Source: Chitinophagaceae bacterium (GTDB taxonomy: Bacteria; Bacteroidota; Bacteroidia; Chitinophagales; Chitinophagaceae). From it: 64,000 nucleotides of DNA. This document shows, one piece after another, positions 4,811-59,236 of the stretch (positions within the stretch are counted from its first letter, which is position 1; each line of letters begins with the position of its first letter). The notes beneath the pieces were generated by a model. It was not told the DNA's origin. It did no database searches and saw only the letters and a program-made list of their open reading frames with translations. Where the stretch lies: assembly GCA_004173235.1 (NCBI GenBank), contig SEAC01000020.1:84678-148677 (forward strand). Direction: 5' to 3'. The translations under genes and the position numbers were made by a program.

Positions 4811-4842
4811 CCCTTCCCTTAGGGAAGGGGCAGGGGATGGGT
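4811..4842. repeat. REP-like hairpin of the family flanking DUF559 at 38.4-39.0 kb
   Basis: CCCTTCCC-TTA-GGGAAGGG-GCAGGGGATGGG has the same layout as CCCCTCTCC-TTT-GGAGAGGGG-CCGGGGGTAAGG. Confidence 0.65.
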
Positions 4843-4909
4843 CTGGCTAATGGGGTAATGGGGTATGGAATTGGATTCGCCGCCGCATCTCTTTACAAAA
4901 CCAAACGCC

Positions 4910-35854: not shown

Positions 35855-38350
35855 ATGGATAGCACGCAGTCCGCCACTTACGCCCGGTTTCTCCAGTCCG
35901 GCGGCCAGATGGGCGAGCGCATCCGGAATTTCGATTGGTCGAACCATCCGCTGGGACCGATCGAGGAGTGGCCCGTACTACTACGTACATCGCTCAGCAT
36001 TTGCCTCAACGCGGGCTTTCCCATTGCCATTTACTGGGGCCCGGAGCTTTATCTTTTGTATAACGATGCGTGGAGCGCCATACCTGGCGACAAGCATCCA
36101 TGGGCACTCGGGCAGCGCGCTGCCGATGTGTGGCCGGATATCTGGGACACCGTTGGCCCGCAATTCGAAGAGACGCTCGCGGATGGACGTTCGTTTCGTT
36201 CCACCGACCAGTTTCTTCCGATGCAGCGTTTCGGTTTCATTGAAGAAACCTATTTCGATTATAGCCTGTCGCCGATCTTCGAGTCGGACGGCAGCGTTGC
36301 GGGTGTGTTCAATGCCGGCATCGAAACCACCTACCGCATCATCAACGAACGGCGGAACCGCTTTCTGGGCAAGCTGGTGGAAGACCTCAGCACCGCGCGC
36401 AATGCGCAGGAAGTGTTTGTGAACGCTGGCGCCGCATTTTCGGAGATTCCCATCTCGATCCCGTTCGTGATCTTTTACACCATCGAAGCCGACGGCCGCA
36501 TTGTGCAGGCGAATGCAGCGGGATTGCCCGAAGGCATGGAGATCGAGCCGGAGGCCTGGACTTTTTCGGCTGTAAGAGAAAGTGGTGCGGCCCGCCTGGA
36601 GCCGATCACACACGTGGCGTTGCACGACCTCCCCGGCTATTGGCCGGAGGCAGCGCGCAATGCGATATTGCTTCCCTTGTACACCGATAGCACCCTTACC
36701 GGTTTCCTCGTTTGCGCCGTCAGCCCGCGTCGAATCATGGACGCAGCCTACCAGCAATACCTTGTAACCACTGCGCTGCACATCAGCACGGCGCTCACGC
36801 GCAGCGCTGCAATGGCCAAGGAAGAAGAGGTGCGTGCGCAGCTGGCGGAAAGCGAAGACAACCTGCGCCGGCTTTTCATGCAGGCACCCATGGGCATCTG
36901 CATTTTGAGTACGGAGGATATGATCGTGGAGCTGGTCAACGATGTGTACCTGTCGATCGTGCAACGCGAGCGGGCCAGCTTTGAGCACCGTCCTTTGTGG
37001 GAAGGACTCCCCGAGGTGCGCGACCAGGGCTTCGACGATATTCTCCGCAACGTGCTGCGCACCTGTGAGCGGTTTATCGGGCGCGAGGTGCCCGTGCAGA
37101 TCCTCCGCAACAACGTGGAAGAAACCATCTATGTAGATTTTGTTTACGAGCCGATGCGCGAGAACGATGGTCGCTGCAGCCGCATCATGGCGCTGGTGAT
37201 CGATGTTACCGACAAGGTGCAATCGCGCCGTGCCATCGAGCTTTCGGAAGAACGTGCGCGGATTGCAATCGAGTCGGCAGACCTGGGAACTTTTGATGTG
37301 GATCTTACCACCGATGATTTGAAGGCTTCGCAACGGATGGCCGACATCATGGGCGTGTCGGACCGTAACAACCGGGCATCGTACATCCGCGTGCTTCATC
37401 CCGACGACCTGCACATTCGTGATGCTGCCTATGAGCGCGCTTTCAAGGATGGCTATCTTTTATACGAGTGCCGCATCATCCGCGAAGACGGCAGCCTGCG
37501 CTGGTGCCGCTTCAAAGGCCGCATCTTTTTTGAAGACGGAAAGCCAGTGACCCTGCTCGGCGTGGTGCAGGACATTACCGAGGTAAAGCAGTTTGCCGCC
37601 GAGCTCACGCGCATGGTGGAAGAGCGTACGCAAGCACTTCAAGCTGCTAATGCAGCACTCGAGCGCCAGAACTCCGAGCTGGAGCAGTTTGCTTACGTAT
37701 CCAGCCACGACCTCCAGGAGCCGCTGCGGAAGATCCGGATGTTCGCCGATTTCATCCGCGAGCACGAGTGGGAACGACTGAGTGAGCTGGCCCGCAACCG
37801 TTTTGAAAAGATCAGCGCCTCTGCCGACCGCATGAGCCGCTCGCTGCGCGACCTGCTCGAATTTGCATCGCTCGACCGCGCCGAACATCGCGAGCCCGTT
37901 GACCTCAACGAAGTGCTTCACCAGGTGCGGCAGGACCTGGAACTGGCCATCGCACAGAATGGTGCAGAGATCGTATCCGAATCATTGCCCACGCTGCCTG
38001 CCATCCCGCTGCAGATGCACCAGTTGCTTTACAACCTCGTGAACAACGCGCTGAAGTTTGTGCGCCCCGGCGTGCCGCCTCGCGTGGAAGTGCAATGTCG
38101 CGAGGTGACCGAAGGCGGAAAGGAATACTACGAGATCCGCGTGCACGACAACGGCATCGGTTTTTCGCAGCAGTACGCGCAGCGCATCTTTACCATCTTC
38201 CAACGCCTCCACGATCGCAGCACGTATACGGGCTCCGGCATCGGCCTGGCCATATGCAAGAAAGTGGCGGAGAACCACGGCGGGTCAATCCGTGCGGAGG
38301 GCCGGGTTGGAGCGGGTGCGACGTTTATAGTGGTGCTGGCGGCCCGGTGA
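35855..38350 (+). CDS. Multi-sensor PAS/GAF histidine kinase
   Basis: LGPIEEWP...WGPELYLLYNDA PAS-like N-terminus, further PAS domains, SHDLQEPLRK, DNGIGF, GSGIGLAIC. Confidence 0.92.
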   Translation: MDSTQSATYARFLQSGGQMGERIRNFDWSNHPLGPIEEWPVLLRTSLSICLNAGFPIAIYWGPELYLLYNDAWSAIPGDKHPWALGQRAADVWPDIWDTVGPQFEETLADGRSFRSTDQFLPMQRFGFIEETYFDYSLSPIFESDGSVAGVFNAGIETTYRIINERRNRFLGKLVEDLSTARNAQEVFVNAGAAFSEIPISIPFVIFYTIEADGRIVQANAAGLPEGMEIEPEAWTFSAVRESGAARLEPITHVALHDLPGYWPEAARNAILLPLYTDSTLTGFLVCAVSPRRIMDAAYQQYLVTTALHISTALTRSAAMAKEEEVRAQLAESEDNLRRLFMQAPMGICILSTEDMIVELVNDVYLSIVQRERASFEHRPLWEGLPEVRDQGFDDILRNVLRTCERFIGREVPVQILRNNVEETIYVDFVYEPMRENDGRCSRIMALVIDVTDKVQSRRAIELSEERARIAIESADLGTFDVDLTTDDLKASQRMADIMGVSDRNNRASYIRVLHPDDLHIRDAAYERAFKDGYLLYECRIIREDGSLRWCRFKGRIFFEDGKPVTLLGVVQDITEVKQFAAELTRMVEERTQALQAANAALERQNSELEQFAYVSSHDLQEPLRKIRMFADFIREHEWERLSELARNRFEKISASADRMSRSLRDLLEFASLDRAEHREPVDLNEVLHQVRQDLELAIAQNGAEIVSESLPTLPAIPLQMHQLLYNLVNNALKFVRPGVPPRVEVQCREVTEGGKEYYEIRVHDNGIGFSQQYAQRIFTIFQRLHDRSTYTGSGIGLAICKKVAENHGGSIRAEGRVGAGATFIVVLAAR

Positions 38351-38358
38351 GGTATCCC

Positions 38359-38978
38359 GACCTCGCCCCCGGCCCCTCTCCCAGGAGAGGGGTGCCTCTG
38401 CGGGACATTTTTTTCTGTCTTCTAACTGCCTTTCTTTGAGAAAAACACCGCCTGAATGTGGTGAAAAACACATGGTTCAGTCACTTGAAGTTGGGTTCTT
38501 TAGTGCATGAAAAGGCCGATCAGGAAACACTATGAATTATCCCATCCAGCCATCTACAAGTTTGTTTTCCCTTTCGCAAAAGAAAATCGCAAGTCACCCA
38601 CTGCAGCTGAAGCGAAGCTTTGGAAACACATCAAAAATCGCCAGATAGACGGTTTCAAGTTTCGACGGCAGCATGTTGTTGATCGTTACATACCCGATTT
38701 CATTTGTATCGATGTGCGATTGATTGTGGAGGTTGATGGCAGCATTCATGAAGAAGAGGAACAACGCAAATATGATCTGGAGCGCACGTCCGATCTGGAA
38801 GCACTGGGTTTTAAATTAATCCGATTCACCAACGAACAAGTTCTGGAACATACACGTGTTGTATTGGACGAAATACGAAGGGCGCTTCATGAATGTGCAA
38901 CCAACATGCAGCAACAAACTAATTAGTCTGTACAACTGAGGCACCCCTCTCCTTTGGAGAGGGGCCGGGGGTAAGGTC
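38359..38978. mobile_element. DUF559 gene bracketed by ~40-bp inverted REP-like repeats
   Basis: Left GACCTCGCCCCCGGCCCCTCTCCCAGGAGAGGGGTGCCTC (38359-38398); right arm 38938-38978 has reverse complement GACCTTACCCCCGGCCCCTCTCCAAAGGAGAGGGGTGCCTC. Confidence 0.7.
38507..38926 (+). CDS. DUF559 (Vsr-like) endonuclease domain protein
   Basis: RKSPTAAEAKLW, GFKFRRQH, YIPDFIC, VEVDGSIH, IRFTNEQV; AT-richer than the flanks. Confidence 0.9.
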   Translation: MKRPIRKHYELSHPAIYKFVFPFAKENRKSPTAAEAKLWKHIKNRQIDGFKFRRQHVVDRYIPDFICIDVRLIVEVDGSIHEEEEQRKYDLERTSDLEALGFKLIRFTNEQVLEHTRVVLDEIRRALHECATNMQQQTN

Positions 38979-39396
38979 AGGGGGCCTTCTCAAACCGCTC
39001 CGTCCTCCCCAGCAGCGAAAACCCGATAAAGCCGCGTGCATTCAGCGTTTTACCATTGTTGGTGATCCAGAGCTTGCAACTGTATACTTTGCCGTTTTGC
39101 GGGTCGTACACCTTGCCGTCTACCCACTCCTTATCGTCGCTGTCGTAGCTGAAGTTGGTGAAGAGGTTGCTTCCCATCAGTTCGCGGCCCCGGAGTGATG
39201 CGTCGGGGTTTTTATCATCCTTCTTTCCCGGGTTTTTGGTCCACACGAGGCGGCCGAAATACTTGCCGTTGCTTTTGTAGAATTCGATCTGTCCGTCGCG
39301 CTTCGGGCTCCACCAGCGACCAAGCAGTGCGTCTTGCGCGGAAGCGGCCAGGGTGAGCAGGAGCGTGAAGGCGAGCAGCGAAAGTGCCTTATGCAT
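38977..39396 (-). CDS. DUF2147 domain exported protein
   Basis: Signal peptide, DKNPDASLRGRELMG, GKVYDPQNGKVYSC, GFIGFSLLGRT. Confidence 0.88.
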   Translation of the reverse strand: MHKALSLLAFTLLLTLAASAQDALLGRWWSPKRDGQIEFYKSNGKYFGRLVWTKNPGKKDDKNPDASLRGRELMGSNLFTNFSYDSDDKEWVDGKVYDPQNGKVYSCKLWITNNGKTLNARGFIGFSLLGRTERFEKAP

Positions 39397-57130: not shown

Positions 57131-59236
57131 ATACCGAATTACACGAACATACTGGGCAATCCCATCGAATACCTGAAGGGCGTGGGCCCGCAGAAGGCCG
57201 ACCTGCTCAAGAAGGAACTGGGCATCTTCACCTTCGGCGACCTGCTACACCATTTTCCCTACCGACATATCGACAAAACGCGGTTCTCGCCGGTGATCGA
57301 CCTCAACCCGACGCTCGACTACGTGCAGGTGCGCGGCTTTCTAACCTATAAAGAAACCGCCGGTGAAAAAAGCGGGCGACGCCTGCTTGCCTACCTGCGC
57401 GACGAGACCGGTACCATCGAGCTCACCTGGTTCAAAGGCCTCAATTGGGTGGAGAAGCTGCTGCGCGAAGGCGCTCAATACACGGTGTTTGGCAAACTTT
57501 CTTTCTTCATGGGAAAGCCCCAGCTGGTGCACCCGGAGATCGAGCCCTACAACCCCGACGCCGTGCCCAACAGCCTCGAGCCCGTGTACAGCAGCACCGA
57601 GAAGCTGAAAAGCCGCGGCCTCGGCGGACGGCCCATCGGAAAGCTCGTTCAGGCCCTTTTCGAAATACTTCCCCACGAAGAACTTCCGGAAAACCTTCCC
57701 GATGCTATCCTTGAAAAAGGCAAGCTGATGGGACGCTACGCGGCCTACCGCGGCATTCATTTTCCACGCAGCCCCAAAGAATGCGCGCACGCCATCCGTC
57801 GCCTCAAGTTCGAAGAGCTGTTCATCGCGCAGGTGCGGCTGGCCCGTACCCGCTCCGAGCGCCACCGCCTTTCGCGCGGCGTCCTCTTCGACCAGGTAGG
57901 CGACCTGTTCAACACCTTTTATAAAGAACACCTTCCCTTCGAGCTTACCGGCGCACAAAAGCGCGTGCTGAAGGAGATCCGCACCGATACCGCATCGGGC
58001 CACCAGATGAACCGGCTGTTGCAGGGCGACGTGGGCTCGGGTAAGACCATCGTGGCATTGCTCGCCATGCTGCTTGCCAACGACAACGGCTACCAGGCAT
58101 GCCTGATGGCGCCAACCGAGATCCTCGCGCAGCAACACTACAAGGGCCTCAGCGAACTGCTCGCACCGATGGAACTGCCGATCCGTATTCTTACGGGAAG
58201 CACAAAGACGGCAGAAAGAAAAAAGATCCTCGGCGAACTGCTGGAGGGTTCCGTACGTATTCTTATCGGTACGCACGCGCTCATCGAGGAAGTGGTGCAG
58301 TTTCAAAACCTGGGACTGGCCATCGTGGACGAACAACACCGGTTTGGCGTGGCGCAGCGTGCGCGTTTATGGAAGAAGGCTACGGTGCCGCCGCACGTGC
58401 TGGTGATGACCGCAACGCCCATCCCGCGCACGCTGGCAATGACGGCCTACGGCGACCTCGATTGCAGCGTGATGGACGAACTGCCGCCCGGCCGCCTGCC
58501 CGTGCACACCGTGCATCGCCTCGACGACCAGCGCACGCGCGTGATGGAATTCATGCGCGGCGAGCTGGAGAAGGGACGGCAAGCCTACGTGATCTTCCCG
58601 CTTATCGAGGAGAGCGAGAAGGTGGATTATGAAAGTCTGATGGTGGGCTACGAGAACGTGAAGGCGTTTTTCCCAGAGCCACGCTATTGGATCAGCATGG
58701 TGCACGGCCGGCAAACTTCGGAAGTGAAGGAGGCGAACATGCAGCGTTTTGTGCAGGGCGACACTCAGATAATGGTGAGCACCACCGTCATCGAAGTGGG
58801 CGTGAACGTGCCGAATGCCTCGGTGATGGTAATTGAAAGTGCGGAAAAATTTGGACTATCCCAGCTGCACCAGCTCCGGGGCCGCGTGGGCCGCGGTGCC
58901 GAAAAAAGCTATTGCGTACTGATGACCAGCCCCAAGTTGAGCAACGACGCGCGGGAACGCCTGAAGATGATGTGCGCAACGAACAGTGGTTTTGAAATTG
59001 CAGAAAAAGATCTGGAGCTCAGAGGACCGGGAGAAATTGAGGGCACCCGACAAAGTGGATCGTTAAACTTCCGGCTCGCAGATCTCGTCAAAGACAAAAC
59101 CGTTCTCGACGCGGCGAAATCCTACGCCGAGCAATTGGTGGAAGAAGACCCGGAACTGGAGTCGGCCGACCACGTGCGTTTGAAACAGTACCTCTTGTCG
59201 CAAATGGGTAAGACCCCCTGGAGCCGCATATCTTAA
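57131..59236 (+). CDS. recG: ATP-dependent DNA helicase RecG (start uncertain; ORF track starts at GTG 57182)
   Basis: PIEYLKGVGPQKA, LQGDVGSGKT, APTEILAQQH, VDEQHRFG, MTATPIPRT, QLHQLRGRVGRG, DLELRGPG. Confidence 0.95.
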   Translation: MPNYTNILGNPIEYLKGVGPQKADLLKKELGIFTFGDLLHHFPYRHIDKTRFSPVIDLNPTLDYVQVRGFLTYKETAGEKSGRRLLAYLRDETGTIELTWFKGLNWVEKLLREGAQYTVFGKLSFFMGKPQLVHPEIEPYNPDAVPNSLEPVYSSTEKLKSRGLGGRPIGKLVQALFEILPHEELPENLPDAILEKGKLMGRYAAYRGIHFPRSPKECAHAIRRLKFEELFIAQVRLARTRSERHRLSRGVLFDQVGDLFNTFYKEHLPFELTGAQKRVLKEIRTDTASGHQMNRLLQGDVGSGKTIVALLAMLLANDNGYQACLMAPTEILAQQHYKGLSELLAPMELPIRILTGSTKTAERKKILGELLEGSVRILIGTHALIEEVVQFQNLGLAIVDEQHRFGVAQRARLWKKATVPPHVLVMTATPIPRTLAMTAYGDLDCSVMDELPPGRLPVHTVHRLDDQRTRVMEFMRGELEKGRQAYVIFPLIEESEKVDYESLMVGYENVKAFFPEPRYWISMVHGRQTSEVKEANMQRFVQGDTQIMVSTTVIEVGVNVPNASVMVIESAEKFGLSQLHQLRGRVGRGAEKSYCVLMTSPKLSNDARERLKMMCATNSGFEIAEKDLELRGPGEIEGTRQSGSLNFRLADLVKDKTVLDAAKSYAEQLVEEDPELESADHVRLKQYLLSQMGKTPWSRIS

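What the first reader, a model, noticed from the sequence alone, without database searches (positions are those of the whole stretch)
38359..38978. 620-bp DUF559 cassette bounded by inverted hairpin repeats
Seen: ~40-bp arms, each itself a hairpin (CCCCTCTCC-N2-3-GGAGAGGGG), inverted around a single AT-richer DUF559 gene and wedged between two convergent stops (the right arm overlaps the DUF2147 stop). A related orphan hairpin is at 4811. Known: DUF559 is a Vsr-like PD-(D/E)xK nuclease fold with no assigned mobility role. Inference: an IS-like unit in which a Vsr-like nicking enzyme recognises its own hairpin ends.
Basis: partly seen in the sequence, partly recalled or inferred. Interest (0 to 1): 0.66.

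Follow-up and report, generated by a model that had tools for sequence, protein, structure and literature searches.

The report
Mobile nuclease cassette with hairpin ends
A small gene for a Vsr-like DNA-cutting enzyme, bounded by mirror-image GC-rich hairpin repeats, has been inserted between two converging genes; related bacteria show this site empty, holding a gene-less copy, or holding the cassette flipped, so it is mobile DNA whose ends match the long-unexplained BoxC/TMECO repeats of E. coli.

Summary
Window 38359-38978 holds an intact DUF559 gene (38507-38926). It lies between about 45-nt inverted arms, each with a perfect 9-bp hairpin, and is AT-richer than its flanks. It sits between the stops of a histidine kinase gene and a DUF2147 gene.

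The cassette is an insertion. Relatives with the same gene order show this gap:
- empty (stops 7 nt apart, or overlapping genes);
- filled by gene-less arm pairs;
- filled by a related cassette (about 80% identical over the left ~190 nt that the contig holds) in the opposite orientation.

All four DUF559 genes of this genome have such arms. Two of them match repeat families of about 15 copies each. Across Bacteroidota:
- 61 of 77 DUF559 copies have flanks above the control's 95th percentile;
- 12 of 20 unselected free-standing genes also carry such arms;
- about a quarter of copies sit in frame inside housekeeping genes, with clean empty sites here.

The arms have the three-block layout of the BoxC/PIT/TMECO triplex repeats. 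E. coli's only DUF559 gene, ycjD, lies beside one.

Mobility is well supported. That the nuclease itself drives it is inferred, not shown. No paper in the searched library describes the link. Earlier notes of this scan found the same phenomenon many times.

The parts
35855..38350 (+). Left flanking gene: PAS/HisKA/HATPase histidine kinase. Its stop codon lies 6-9 nt before the cassette.
   Evidence: ORF list; Pfam. It is the conserved convergent partner of DUF2147 in relatives.
38356..38407 (.). Left terminal inverted repeat. It consists of a C-rich outer block (CCGACCTCGCCCCCGG), the hairpin CCCCTCTCC-CA-GGAGAGGGG (38373-38392) and an inner part TGCCTCTG..GGACA.
   Evidence: the repeat finder pairs I1, I2 and I15; pattern search with 0 of 100 shuffles matching; DNA fold of the hairpin, -8 to -10 kcal/mol. 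Homology with the L103 cassette starts at about 38359-38361.
38408..38506 (+). AT-rich 5' module upstream of the start codon. It contains the motif GAGAAAAACACC (38438-38449) and a second GAAAAACAC (38463-38471). No function is shown; a promoter or leader is presumed.
   Evidence: Direct repeat D16. The motif GRGAAAAAYACC occurs 14 times in the genome against about 2 expected, including in the other cassettes and the gene-less elements. It is partly conserved in L103.
38507..38926 (+). DUF559 gene (139 aa), a Vsr-like PD-(D/E)xK nuclease fold. The conserved residues D64, E75, D77, H81, D90, R93, R106 and N109 are all present.
   Evidence: Pfam PF04480 at E 3.8e-36; PDB 3HRL at E 2.3e-32 and 3R3P (I-Bth0305I) at 6e-6; residue conservation over 87 copies.
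38929..38981 (.). Right terminal inverted repeat. It consists of an inner part (TGTACAACTGAGGCA), the hairpin CCCCTCTCC-TTT-GGAGAGGGG (38944-38964), a CCG loop and a G-rich third block GGGGTAAGGTCAGG. This is the three-block BoxC/TMECO layout. It overlaps the DUF2147 stop.
   Evidence: the repeat finder pairs I1, I2 and I16; fold; comparison with the TMECO consensus and Table 1 of PMC4666352.
38977..39396 (-). Right flanking gene: DUF2147. Its last codons and stop (..AP*) lie within the outer block of the arm.
   Evidence: ORF list; Pfam. In relatives with an empty site the C-terminus reads ..TRVE*.
4811..4843 (.). Solo arm (hairpin CCCTTCCC-TTA-GGGAAGGG plus third block GGGGATGGGTC). It belongs to the repeat family of the DUF559 paralogue on genome contig C30, not to this cassette.
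   Evidence: Sequence; C30 cassette arms; genome-wide list of about 15 copies of this family.

Best explanation
This is a free-standing copy of a mobile, selfish cassette. It is widespread in Bacteroidota and occurs beyond that phylum. The cassette is a single gene for a DUF559 (Vsr-like PD-(D/E)xK) nuclease, bounded by terminal inverted repeats. Each repeat is a BoxC/PIT/TMECO-type three-block C/G/G element, able to form a hairpin and, by analogy with TMECO, an intrastrand triplex.

Shown here:
- The cassette is an insertion into the short gap between the converging histidine kinase and DUF2147 genes.
- The same gap in relatives is empty, holds gene-less arm pairs, or holds a related cassette inverted.
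- Related cassettes occupy at least 20 different sites. These include in-frame positions in linkers of housekeeping enzymes, where the stop-free arms are translated as Pro/Gly/Ser/Glu linkers.
- On the protein tree, copies at different sites cluster by host lineage. The cassette therefore moves between sites.

Inferred, not shown:
- The encoded nuclease cuts at or beside the folded arms.
- Host recombination and repair then use the arms as homology to copy the gene into other arm pairs, to flip it, or to delete it.
- Deletion would leave gene-less pairs and solo arms.

How the arms first reach a new site is unresolved.
For: This locus:
- The gene order AKR, luciferase-like gene, DUF2147, then a converging PAS kinase is conserved in relatives.
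- The gap is empty in L106 (stops 7 nt apart) and in L104/L105 (genes overlap by 17 nt).
- It holds a ~215-bp gene-less element with both arms in Flaviaesturariibacter flavus (L107).
- It holds a gene-less element with a different arm type in L110.
- In L103 it holds a cassette about 80% identical to this one over left arm, 5' module and the first eight codons, after which the contig ends; it is in the opposite orientation.
- GC is 42-46% inside the cassette against 55-65% outside.

This genome:
- All 4 DUF559 genes have hairpin-bearing inverted flanks.
- The arm types of the C5 and C30 genes match repeat families of about 15 copies each.
- Within the C5 family, 9 of 15 copies of the 23-nt unit are identical, and 7 lie at contig ends.
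- There are gene-less elements of ~560 and ~300 bp.

The wider family:
- Flank inverted-repeat score has a median of 18 against 9 for controls; 61 of 77 loci exceed the control's 95th percentile (Mann-Whitney p = 7e-32).
- 12 of 20 unselected free-standing genes have such arms.
- The hairpin pattern occurs in 14 of 41 relatives. 13 of those 14 carry DUF559, against 8 of the 27 without the pattern (Fisher p = 1.7e-4).
- There are in-frame copies in MetH, LeuRS, IleRS, AroC, UvrA, RecG and others, with clean empty sites in this genome.
- MetH sites A and B are each filled or empty among Flavobacterium relatives.
- Strongly supported tree clades mix different sites within one lineage.
- D64, D90, R93, R106 and N109 are 100% conserved in 75 embedded copies.

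E. coli:
- The only DUF559 gene, ycjD, has a TM-like hairpin over its stop codon.
- TMECO #9 lies 165 bp downstream of it.
Against: - No nuclease activity, cut site or binding to the arms is known for any member.
- No target-site duplication was seen.
- A PD-(D/E)xK nuclease alone has no known strand-transfer activity.
- Solo arms far outnumber genes (about 29 hairpin loci to 4 genes here).
- Protein clade and stem sequence do not strictly co-vary. The C5 and C30 proteins are sisters but have different stems. C14 and C5 share a stem but are not sisters.
- The four paralogues are only 38-48% identical, so gene-bearing copies have not moved recently in this genome.
- This cassette's own arm type has no orphans here.
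- 7-8 of 20 free-standing genes in the unselected sample lack clear arms.
- L103 ends inside the gene, so its far end is unseen.
Confidence: 0.45

Rival explanations
1. The repeats are the mobile or unstable agent, and DUF559 is only cargo. On this view the BoxC/TM-type arm pairs spread or rearrange by host processes, such as polymerase stalling at triplexes, template switching or recombination between repeats, or by an unidentified enzyme. The small nuclease gene has merely been trapped between them and is carried along.
For: - Solo arms and gene-less pairs greatly outnumber gene-bearing cassettes.
- Two different gene-less arm types occupy this very site in relatives.
- One relative has hairpins but no DUF559 gene (G018).
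- In E. coli there are 23 TMECO copies to one ycjD. TM loci there are hypervariable, and no mobility gene was noticed near them (PMC4666352).
- No strict co-variation of protein and stem was found.
Against: - A passive cargo would not be the same gene family in dozens of genera and at least 20 sites.
- Catalytic residues are invariant even in copies embedded in unrelated enzymes.
- Hairpin-bearing genomes almost always carry DUF559 (13 of 14).
- Each large repeat family here has one gene-bearing copy with matching arms.
Confidence: 0.25
2. This is an Ssn-like partnership and not a transposon. On this view DUF559 is a cellular nuclease whose job is to cut its cognate repeat in single-stranded or incoming DNA, so modulating transformation, recombination or defence. 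The GIY-YIG Ssn nucleases do this with NTS/SRM hairpins. The repeats around the gene would reflect autoregulation or local accumulation.
For: - The published precedent has the same anatomy: 71% of ssn genes have SRM repeats nearby and 42% have them on both sides (PMC11893778).
- The same genome has a GIY-YIG/REP locus of that kind (earlier scan note e1-5255321, not rechecked here).
- Matched repeat families exist per paralogue.
- A DUF559 protein of Caulobacter (VsrA) causes DNA damage in vivo (PMC12907096).
Against: - It does not explain the clean insertion/empty-site polymorphism of the gene itself.
- It does not explain the flipped orientation at one site.
- It does not explain the in-frame copies inside at least 15 different housekeeping genes.
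- Copy number per genome is patchy, from 0 to 9.

The two readings are not exclusive: a selfish cassette could have such an activity.
Confidence: 0.15
3. This is an ordinary very-short-patch repair (Vsr-type) gene, and the hairpins are just transcription terminators of the three converging genes.
For: - DUF559 is Vsr-like.
- The arms sit exactly at gene ends.
- GC-rich hairpins can terminate or stabilise transcripts.
Against: - Neither arm is followed by a T-run, and the terminator scan finds none at the arms.
- PIT/BoxC elements showed no terminator activity in earlier work, as cited in PMC4666352.
- No cytosine methyltransferase lies next to the gene.
- The same arms flank the domain inside coding sequences, where termination would be lethal.
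- The site is empty in relatives.
Confidence: 0.03

Closest known systems
BoxC / PIT / TMECO intrastrand-triplex repeats (E. coli and more than 260 genomes; Holder et al. 2015, PMC4666352)
   Same: - The arms have the same three-block C-G-G layout. The TMECO consensus is CCCTCNCCC-N3-6-GGGNGAGGG-N3-GGGNGAGGG.
- Even the second-loop words match: CCG in this cassette's right arm (type B) and TTA in the C5-type arms (type A).
- Both are multi-copy, occur as solo units and inverted pairs, and lie at unstable loci.
- E. coli's only DUF559 gene (ycjD) lies beside TMECO #9.
   Different: - TMECO was described as purely intergenic, with no associated mobility gene and no known function.
- Here the repeats bound a nuclease gene as terminal inverted repeats.
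- In relatives they are also translated inside genes.
- The stem register differs (CCCCTCTCC against CCCTCTCCC).
- Triplex folding of these particular arms was not tested.
REP/REPIN elements with their RAYT gene ('REPtron')
   Same: - A single nuclease-type gene is flanked by inverted copies of a hairpin repeat.
- The same repeat is dispersed through the genome as solo units and doublets.
- Each paralogue has one matching repeat family.
   Different: - RAYT is an HUH/Y1 single-strand transposase, whereas this is a Vsr-like PD-(D/E)xK fold.
- RAYTs are typically vertically kept, single-copy genes.
- DUF559 cassettes are patchy (0-9 per genome), show empty sites and enter reading frames.
Ssn GIY-YIG nucleases with NTS/SRM hairpin repeats (Chenal et al. 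2025, PMC11893778)
   Same: - A small nuclease gene is flanked on one or both sides by its hairpin repeat, which is abundant elsewhere in the genome.
- It is found across phyla.
   Different: - The nuclease superfamily differs.
- Ssn has demonstrated site-specific ssDNA cleavage and a role in transformation.
- No activity is known for DUF559 here, and Ssn genes are not reported as in-frame inserts.
EDxHD / Vsr-like homing endonucleases (I-Bth0305I, PDB 3R3P; Taylor et al. 2011, PMC3239194), and inteins carrying homing endonucleases
   Same: - The catalytic fold is related.
- Both are selfish nuclease genes able to live inside essential genes without destroying them.
   Different: - There is no intron or intein (Hint) module, and no N-terminal DNA-binding domains.
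- There are many unrelated target sites instead of one long recognition site.
- There are terminal inverted repeats.
- The copy in this window is intergenic.
Rickettsia palindromic elements and other MITEs read in frame
   Same: Short palindromic elements that insert into coding sequences and are translated. Gene-less derivatives are present.
   Different: RPEs encode nothing, whereas this family has a gene-bearing form with a conserved nuclease.
Vsr and VsrA very-short-patch repair endonucleases (E. coli Vsr; Caulobacter VsrA, PMC12907096)
   Same: They share the fold and active-site layout. VsrA contains a DUF559 domain.
   Different: - There is no linked cytosine methyltransferase here.
- The distribution is cassette-like and patchy.
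- There are hairpin inverted repeats.

Membership tests
DUF559 (Pfam PF04480), Vsr-like PD-(D/E)xK nucleases | Match to the family profile above the curated cut-off | tested here: met
   123.7 bits against a cut-off of 20.6, E 3.8e-36, covering profile positions 6-108 of 109.
DUF559 (Pfam PF04480), Vsr-like PD-(D/E)xK nucleases | Conserved acidic and His core residues (D..ExD..H) and a solved structural relative | tested here: met
   D64, E75, D77, H81, D90, R93, R106 and N109 are present and invariant in 87 copies. PDB 3HRL matches at E 2.3e-32 and 3R3P at 6e-6.
DUF559 (Pfam PF04480), Vsr-like PD-(D/E)xK nucleases | Nuclease activity | not testable with these tools
   This needs purified protein.
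BoxC / PIT / TMECO triplex motif | Three consecutive blocks (C-rich, G-rich, G-rich), with the first two forming a hairpin and a short second loop | tested here: met
   The right arm reads CCCCTCTCC TTT GGAGAGGGG CCG GGGGTAAGG. The TMECO consensus is CCCTCNCCC N3-6 GGGNGAGGG N3 GGGNGAGGG, and type B has the loop CCG.
BoxC / PIT / TMECO triplex motif | Multi-copy dispersal in the genome, as solo units and inverted pairs | tested here: inconclusive
   This is met for the genome's C5-type family (15 copies) and C30-type family (about 15 copies). This cassette's own arm variant occurs only at its two ends, plus one distant look-alike.
BoxC / PIT / TMECO triplex motif | Formation of an intrastrand triplex | not testable with these tools
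   ViennaRNA folds only the hairpin. A triplex needs CD or NMR, as in PMC4666352.
Insertion sequence / transposon | Terminal inverted repeats | tested here: met
   The arms are about 45-52 nt. In relatives the loops are reverse complements of each other.
Insertion sequence / transposon | Presence/absence polymorphism and multiple insertion sites | tested here: met
   Relatives show the site empty, gene-less or inverted. The family occupies at least 20 sites. MetH sites A and B are polymorphic.
Insertion sequence / transposon | Transposase of a known class (DDE, HUH, Ser or Tyr) | tested here: not met
   The only ORF with a Pfam match in the cassette is DUF559.
Insertion sequence / transposon | Target-site duplication | tested here: inconclusive
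   None is visible at this locus or at the compared sites. However, the empty sites come from relatives of only 62-75% protein identity.
Homing endonuclease gene (EDxHD family) / intein | Residence in a self-splicing intron or intein, with one long specific target site | tested here: not met
   This copy is intergenic. Embedded relatives add only about 130-180 aa with no Hint domain detected, and their target sites are unrelated.
REP/RAYT | HUH/Y1 transposase gene between inverted REPs | tested here: not met
   The gene is DUF559, not Y1_Tnp. Only the anatomy of gene plus repeats is shared.
Ssn/SRM | GIY-YIG nuclease with SRM repeats | tested here: not met
   There is no GIY-YIG match, and the arms differ from SRM/NTS. 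The resemblance is analogy only.
Vsr repair system | Genetic linkage to a C5-cytosine methyltransferase | tested here: not met
   The neighbours are a histidine kinase, DUF2147 and a luciferase-like monooxygenase.

The most novel reading that the evidence does not exclude
DUF559 nucleases and BoxC/PIT/TMECO-type triplex repeats would together form one previously unrecognised class of bacterial mobile element.

- The Vsr-like nuclease would recognise the folded hairpin or triplex ends of its own cassette, and of the gene-less copies.
- Its cuts would drive copying, flipping and loss through host repair.
- The stop-free ends would let the element settle either between genes, as here, or in frame inside essential genes.

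This would give the 30-year-old orphan BoxC repeats of E. coli a partner enzyme, YcjD, and an origin.
Probability: 0.3. Interest if true: 0.9.

Novelty: new variant of a known kind. Interest (0 to 1): 0.72.

Why it matters
If the link holds, it explains three loose ends together:
- what the very common DUF559 'domain of unknown function' does;
- where the BoxC/PIT/TMECO repeats come from. They have been known since the 1990s, are shown to fold as triplexes and mark unstable loci, and have no known function or partner;
- why many Bacteroidota housekeeping enzymes carry an extra nuclease domain flanked by Pro/Gly-rich peptides.

It would add a nuclease fold (Vsr-like PD-(D/E)xK) to the short list of 'nuclease plus cognate hairpin repeat' partnerships, alongside RAYT/REP and Ssn/SRM.

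It would also show a further way for a nuclease gene to live in essential genes, beside introns and inteins. No splicing module was detected in the in-frame copies; that the insert stays in the mature protein is inferred from the open frames, not tested.

The hypothesis is directly testable in E. coli K-12 with YcjD and TMECO oligonucleotides.

A structure- or sequence-specific nuclease for triplex or hairpin DNA could also be a useful reagent.

Tried and rejected
Steps that led nowhere:
- Exact-sequence look-ups of the window's DUF559 and DUF2147 proteins found nothing (the first used wrong coordinates). A homology search on DUF2147 was used in their place and gave the empty sites.
- A first attempt to find the empty site through DUF2147 homologues in 40 relatives gave only 37-46% identical paralogue-level hits.
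- A clean E. coli empty site for ycjD was not obtained. Strains lacking it carry the eefRABCD island in its place.

Explanations considered and rejected:
- Terminator reading: no T-run terminators at the arms.
- Known RNA family: only a sub-threshold whalefall-1 hit at the left arm (16.2 bits against a gathering score of 37, E 0.32). No Rfam family reached gathering score at the arms of 20 related loci.
- The ~560-bp gene-less element at C22:416040-416605 as a decayed DUF559 gene: a profile HMM over the six-frame translation finds no remnant.
- The arms as target-site duplications of a palindrome: rejected, because the two loops are reverse complements of each other in relatives.

Correction of a biased figure:
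- The 75 of 83 'embedded' fraction from the best-80 loci is a selection bias. In an evenly drawn phylum sample, about 34 of the 150 listed copies (about a quarter) lie in frames of 370 aa or more.

Literature:
- Searches for DUF559 with repeats or mobility, in-frame palindromes, and ycjD found no description of the cassette.
Full report
**1. The observation**

Window 38359-38978 is as described.
- A 139-codon ORF (38507-38926, + strand) matches Pfam DUF559 at E 3.8e-36.
- It lies between two arms that are inverted copies of each other, 38356-38407 and 38929-38981.
- Each arm holds a perfect 9-bp hairpin: CCCCTCTCC-CA-GGAGAGGGG at 38373-38392 and CCCCTCTCC-TTT-GGAGAGGGG at 38944-38964.
- The hairpin pattern occurs twice in the window and never in 100 dinucleotide shuffles.
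- GC drops to 42-46% inside, against 55-65% outside.
- The stop of a PAS/HisKA histidine kinase gene (38348-38350) lies 6-9 nt before the left arm.
- The stop of the converging DUF2147 gene (38977-38979) lies inside the right arm.
- Neither arm is followed by a T-run, and the terminator scan finds nothing at the arms.
- Rfam gives only a sub-threshold hit.

**2. This locus is an insertion, and the site is polymorphic**

The gene order is aldo-keto reductase, luciferase-like monooxygenase, DUF2147, then a converging PAS kinase. It is kept in relatives whose DUF2147 is 62-75% identical. The gap between the two converging stops takes several states.
- Empty in a JGI metagenome contig (L106): 'gtagaaTAGaaataaaTCAggcc', with stops 7 nt apart.
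- Empty in L104/L105, where the genes overlap by 17 nt.
- A ~215-bp gene-less element with both arms in Flaviaesturariibacter flavus (L107). It reads ACCTCACCCCCGGCCCCTCTCC-ctgg-GGAGAGGGG, then about 150 bp, then CCCCTCTCC-gtccc-GGAGCGGGG-CCG-GGGGTGAGGT. The kinase stop abuts the arm.
- A gene-less element with a different arm type (C5 stems) in a Chitinophagaceae MAG (L110).
- A different AT-rich repeat after DUF2147 in L108/L109, where the contigs end.
- In another Chitinophagaceae MAG (L103), a cassette about 80% identical to this one over left arm, 5' module and the first eight codons (MKRPIKKQ against MKRPIRKH), after which the contig ends. There the gene's 5' end lies next to DUF2147 and not next to the kinase, so the cassette is flipped relative to the flanks.

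Homology between L103 and the window begins at 38359-38361.

No target duplication is visible, but the compared genomes are distant.

**3. The link between hairpin arms and DUF559 genes**

This genome (3.76 Mb, 41 contigs, probably Chitinophagaceae):
- There are four DUF559 genes, 38-48% identical to each other.
- All four have hairpin-bearing inverted flanks, each of its own kind.
- The C5 gene's arms (unit CCTCACCCCCTAACCCCCTCTCC) match a family of 15 copies. Nine copies are identical over 23 nt and seven lie at contig ends.
- That family includes gene-less elements of ~560 and ~300 bp.
- The C30 gene's arms (CCCCTTCCC.. plus GGGGATGGGTC) match about 15 further copies, mostly solo half-arms.
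- The 'orphan' at window 4811-4843 belongs to the C30 family, not to this cassette.
- The window's own arm variant is private to this cassette.

41 relatives:
- The hairpin pattern occurs in 14 genomes, and 13 of them carry DUF559.
- Of the 27 genomes without the pattern, 8 carry DUF559 (Fisher p = 1.7e-4).

Closest homologues from genome contigs (80 loci, 83 copies, 77 of them scorable):
- The best inverted repeat across the gene scores a median of 18, against 9 at control positions in the same loci.
- 61 of 77 exceed the control's 95th percentile, and 41 exceed the control's maximum (Mann-Whitney p = 7e-32).

Unselected sample:
- Of 20 free-standing genes from 20 Bacteroidota genomes, 12 have clear C/G hairpin inverted flanks.
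- In some of these the third block faces inward, not outward.

**4. The cassette also lives in frame inside genes**

Most of the closest homologues (75 of 83) sit inside long open frames of housekeeping enzymes. The hosts are:
- MetH (four sites), LeuRS (three sites), IleRS (two sites) and two other aminoacyl-tRNA synthetases;
- chorismate synthase, UvrA, RecG and an IcmF-like mutase;
- adenine deaminase, Ham1 and MurF-Alr;
- and, as N-terminal additions, Gmk, TrpF, an amino-acid kinase and RNase H.

Points of evidence:
- This genome's orthologues are clean empty sites. For example, the MetH alignment is contiguous at C36:11985|11986.
- The inserts are 130-180 aa, and no Hint domain was detected in them.
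- The arms are translated. The left arm gives 'SPQPLSKGEG' and the right arm 'PSPLEREKEGEV'.
- Among Flavobacterium relatives, MetH site A is filled in four genomes and empty in one. Site B is filled in three and empty in two.
- On a tree of the nuclease domains, strongly supported clades join copies at different sites within one lineage. Examples are Flavobacterium MetH-A with MetH-B (99), including two copies in one gene; UvrA with IleRS-2 (98); and two Prevotella host genes (95). A Chitinophagaceae clade of AroC and LeuRS sites 1-3 has 94, just under the star threshold. Copies therefore move between sites and are not only inherited at one site.
- Residues outside the search patterns (D64, D90, R93, R106, N109) are invariant in all 75 embedded copies. 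This argues for selection on the nuclease itself.
- The 90% embedded figure is a selection bias. In an evenly drawn sample of 201 Bacteroidota genomes, 106 carry the family (1-9 copies each), and about a quarter of the 150 listed copies lie in frames of 370 aa or more.
- Free-standing copies such as this one are the majority form. They typically start a few bases after an upstream gene's stop.

**5. What the arms are**

Each arm has three blocks. The first two form the hairpin, and the third is a mirror-like repeat of the second. On the G-rich strand they read C-block, G-block, G-block. This is the layout of the BoxC/PIT/TMECO 'intrastrand triplex motif' (Holder et al. 2015, PMC4666352).
- The TMECO consensus is CCCTCNCCC-N3-6-GGGNGAGGG-N3-GGGNGAGGG.
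- Type A has TTA as its second loop, and type B has CCG.
- The window's right arm (CCCCTCTCC TTT GGAGAGGGG CCG GGGGTAAGG) is type-B-like.
- The C5-type arm (..GGAGAGGGG GTTA GGGGGTGAGG) is type-A-like.

That paper shows triplex folding in vitro, presence in more than 260 genomes, and hypervariable TM loci. It states that no mobility functions were found nearby, and it does not mention DUF559.

I checked E. coli K-12.
- Its only DUF559 gene, ycjD, has a TM-like hairpin (CCCCTCGCTC-TTTCA-GGGAGAGGG) with the stop codon in the loop.
- TMECO #9 lies 165 bp downstream of the gene.
- A duplicated remnant of the ycjD 3' end lies between them.
- With 18 TMECO sites in 4.6 Mb, the chance of one lying this close to a given gene is roughly 0.002 (my own estimate).
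- In other E. coli lineages the eefRABCD operon occupies this position, and ycjD is found 'in place of' it in two independent lineages (PMC12817139).

**6. How it most likely works**

Shown:
- The cassette is mobile DNA that inserts, is lost, and can be found flipped.
- It has gene-less derivatives and solo arms.
- Its gene encodes an apparently intact Vsr-like nuclease. PDB 3HRL matches at E 2e-32, and the homing endonuclease I-Bth0305I (3R3P) at 6e-6 (PMC3239194).

Inferred (my estimate is about 0.45 for the whole chain, and about 0.9 for mobility alone):
- The nuclease cuts at or near the folded arms.
- Host repair then uses the arms as homology.

Because the two arms are inverted copies of each other, repair from a gene-bearing template into a gene-less arm pair could place the gene in either orientation. 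This would account for the four states seen at this one site. Recombination between the near-palindromic hairpins would leave solo arms.

How the arms first reach a new site is unexplained. Arguments against the nuclease-driven model:
- no target duplication was seen;
- the nuclease fold has no known strand-transfer activity;
- protein clade and stem sequence do not strictly co-vary;
- solo arms far outnumber genes.

The main rivals are that DUF559 is cargo of self-spreading or unstable repeats, or that it is an Ssn-like cellular nuclease with a cognate repeat (PMC11893778). A plain Vsr repair gene with terminators is excluded by the in-frame copies and the empty sites.

**7. Novelty and limits**

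The searched library has nothing on DUF559 cassettes, on in-frame DUF559 inserts or on a DUF559-BoxC link.

Earlier notes of this scan report the same phenomenon in over 100 genomes. Their later checks rated the observation as solid and the 'moved by its own nuclease' reading as weak. I used those notes only as leads and re-derived the points cited here. This locus adds:
- a free-standing copy with its own 5' module;
- an allelic series at one site (empty, gene-less, and gene-bearing in both orientations);
- one-to-one matching of two paralogues with two repeat families;

L103 ends inside the gene, so its far junction is unseen.

Noticed in passing
window 38438-38449 and 38463-38471; genome contigs C5:6683, C15:6869, C22:416475, C22:611213, C30:23064, C12:120429, C13:146, C16:179875: A motif GRGAAAAAYACC lies 50-75 bp upstream of the start codon in three of the four DUF559 cassettes. 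It is also kept in the gene-less elements. It occurs 14 times in the genome against about 2 expected by chance (my estimate). It is not conserved upstream of free-standing copies in other genera. It might be a promoter, an operator or a recognition site; its function is unknown.
   Followed up: partly
genome contigs C40:10151-10171 and C21:78571-78591 (outside the window): Solo arms of the CCCCTTCCC family are translated in frame inside long ORFs. One gives 'SPLPLGKGSGDGS' in what looks by eye like IspG. The other gives 'DPSPDPFPRGRGE' near the C-terminus of what looks by eye like a DnaE2-type polymerase. Neither host ORF was searched against Pfam.
   Followed up: partly
window 58379-58393 (recG): This position in the window's recG gene is the empty counterpart of an in-frame DUF559 insertion in the RecG of Flavobacterium difficile (L056).
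   Followed up: partly
L101 (E. coli K-12 NC_000913.3 1351200-1351760): ycjD (DUF559) has its stop codon in the loop of a TM-like hairpin. TMECO #9 lies 165 bp downstream, and a duplicated fragment of the ycjD 3' end lies between them. In other lineages the eefRABCD efflux operon occupies this position (PMC12817139).
   Followed up: partly
genome contig C19:62590-62760 (L001): The fourth DUF559 paralogue is flanked on one side by about 4.5 tandem copies of a 34-nt unit (gggagggtggctggcgcgcgagacgttctgagtc) after a CCCTCCCC-GAA-GGGGAGGG hairpin. On the other side there are inverted matches of the same words.
   Followed up: no
L108:3925-4094 and L109 (Logan contigs): In two relatives the region after DUF2147 holds a different, AT-rich repeat (..ttgaaaatcgaacattgagcgttgaacattgaaaa..) around a terminator-like hairpin, and the contigs end in it. 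This convergent gap seems to attract several repeat families.
   Followed up: no
genome contig ends C7:8059-8160, C30:19-70, C32:68600, C41:47049, C23:1: Several contigs of the assembly break exactly in these arm repeats. The true copy number is therefore probably higher than counted.
   Followed up: no
window 38359-38395, minus strand: There is a weak, sub-threshold Rfam hit of the left arm to whalefall-1 RNA (16.2 bits against a gathering score of 37, E 0.32). No such hit reached gathering score in 20 related loci, so it is probably chance.
   Followed up: yes
L030, L040, L051: Single host genes carry two DUF559 cassettes at once (MetH in two Flavobacterium MAGs, LeuRS in a Chitinophagaceae MAG). 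In L030 the two copies are near-identical. In L051 they belong to different clades.
   Followed up: partly
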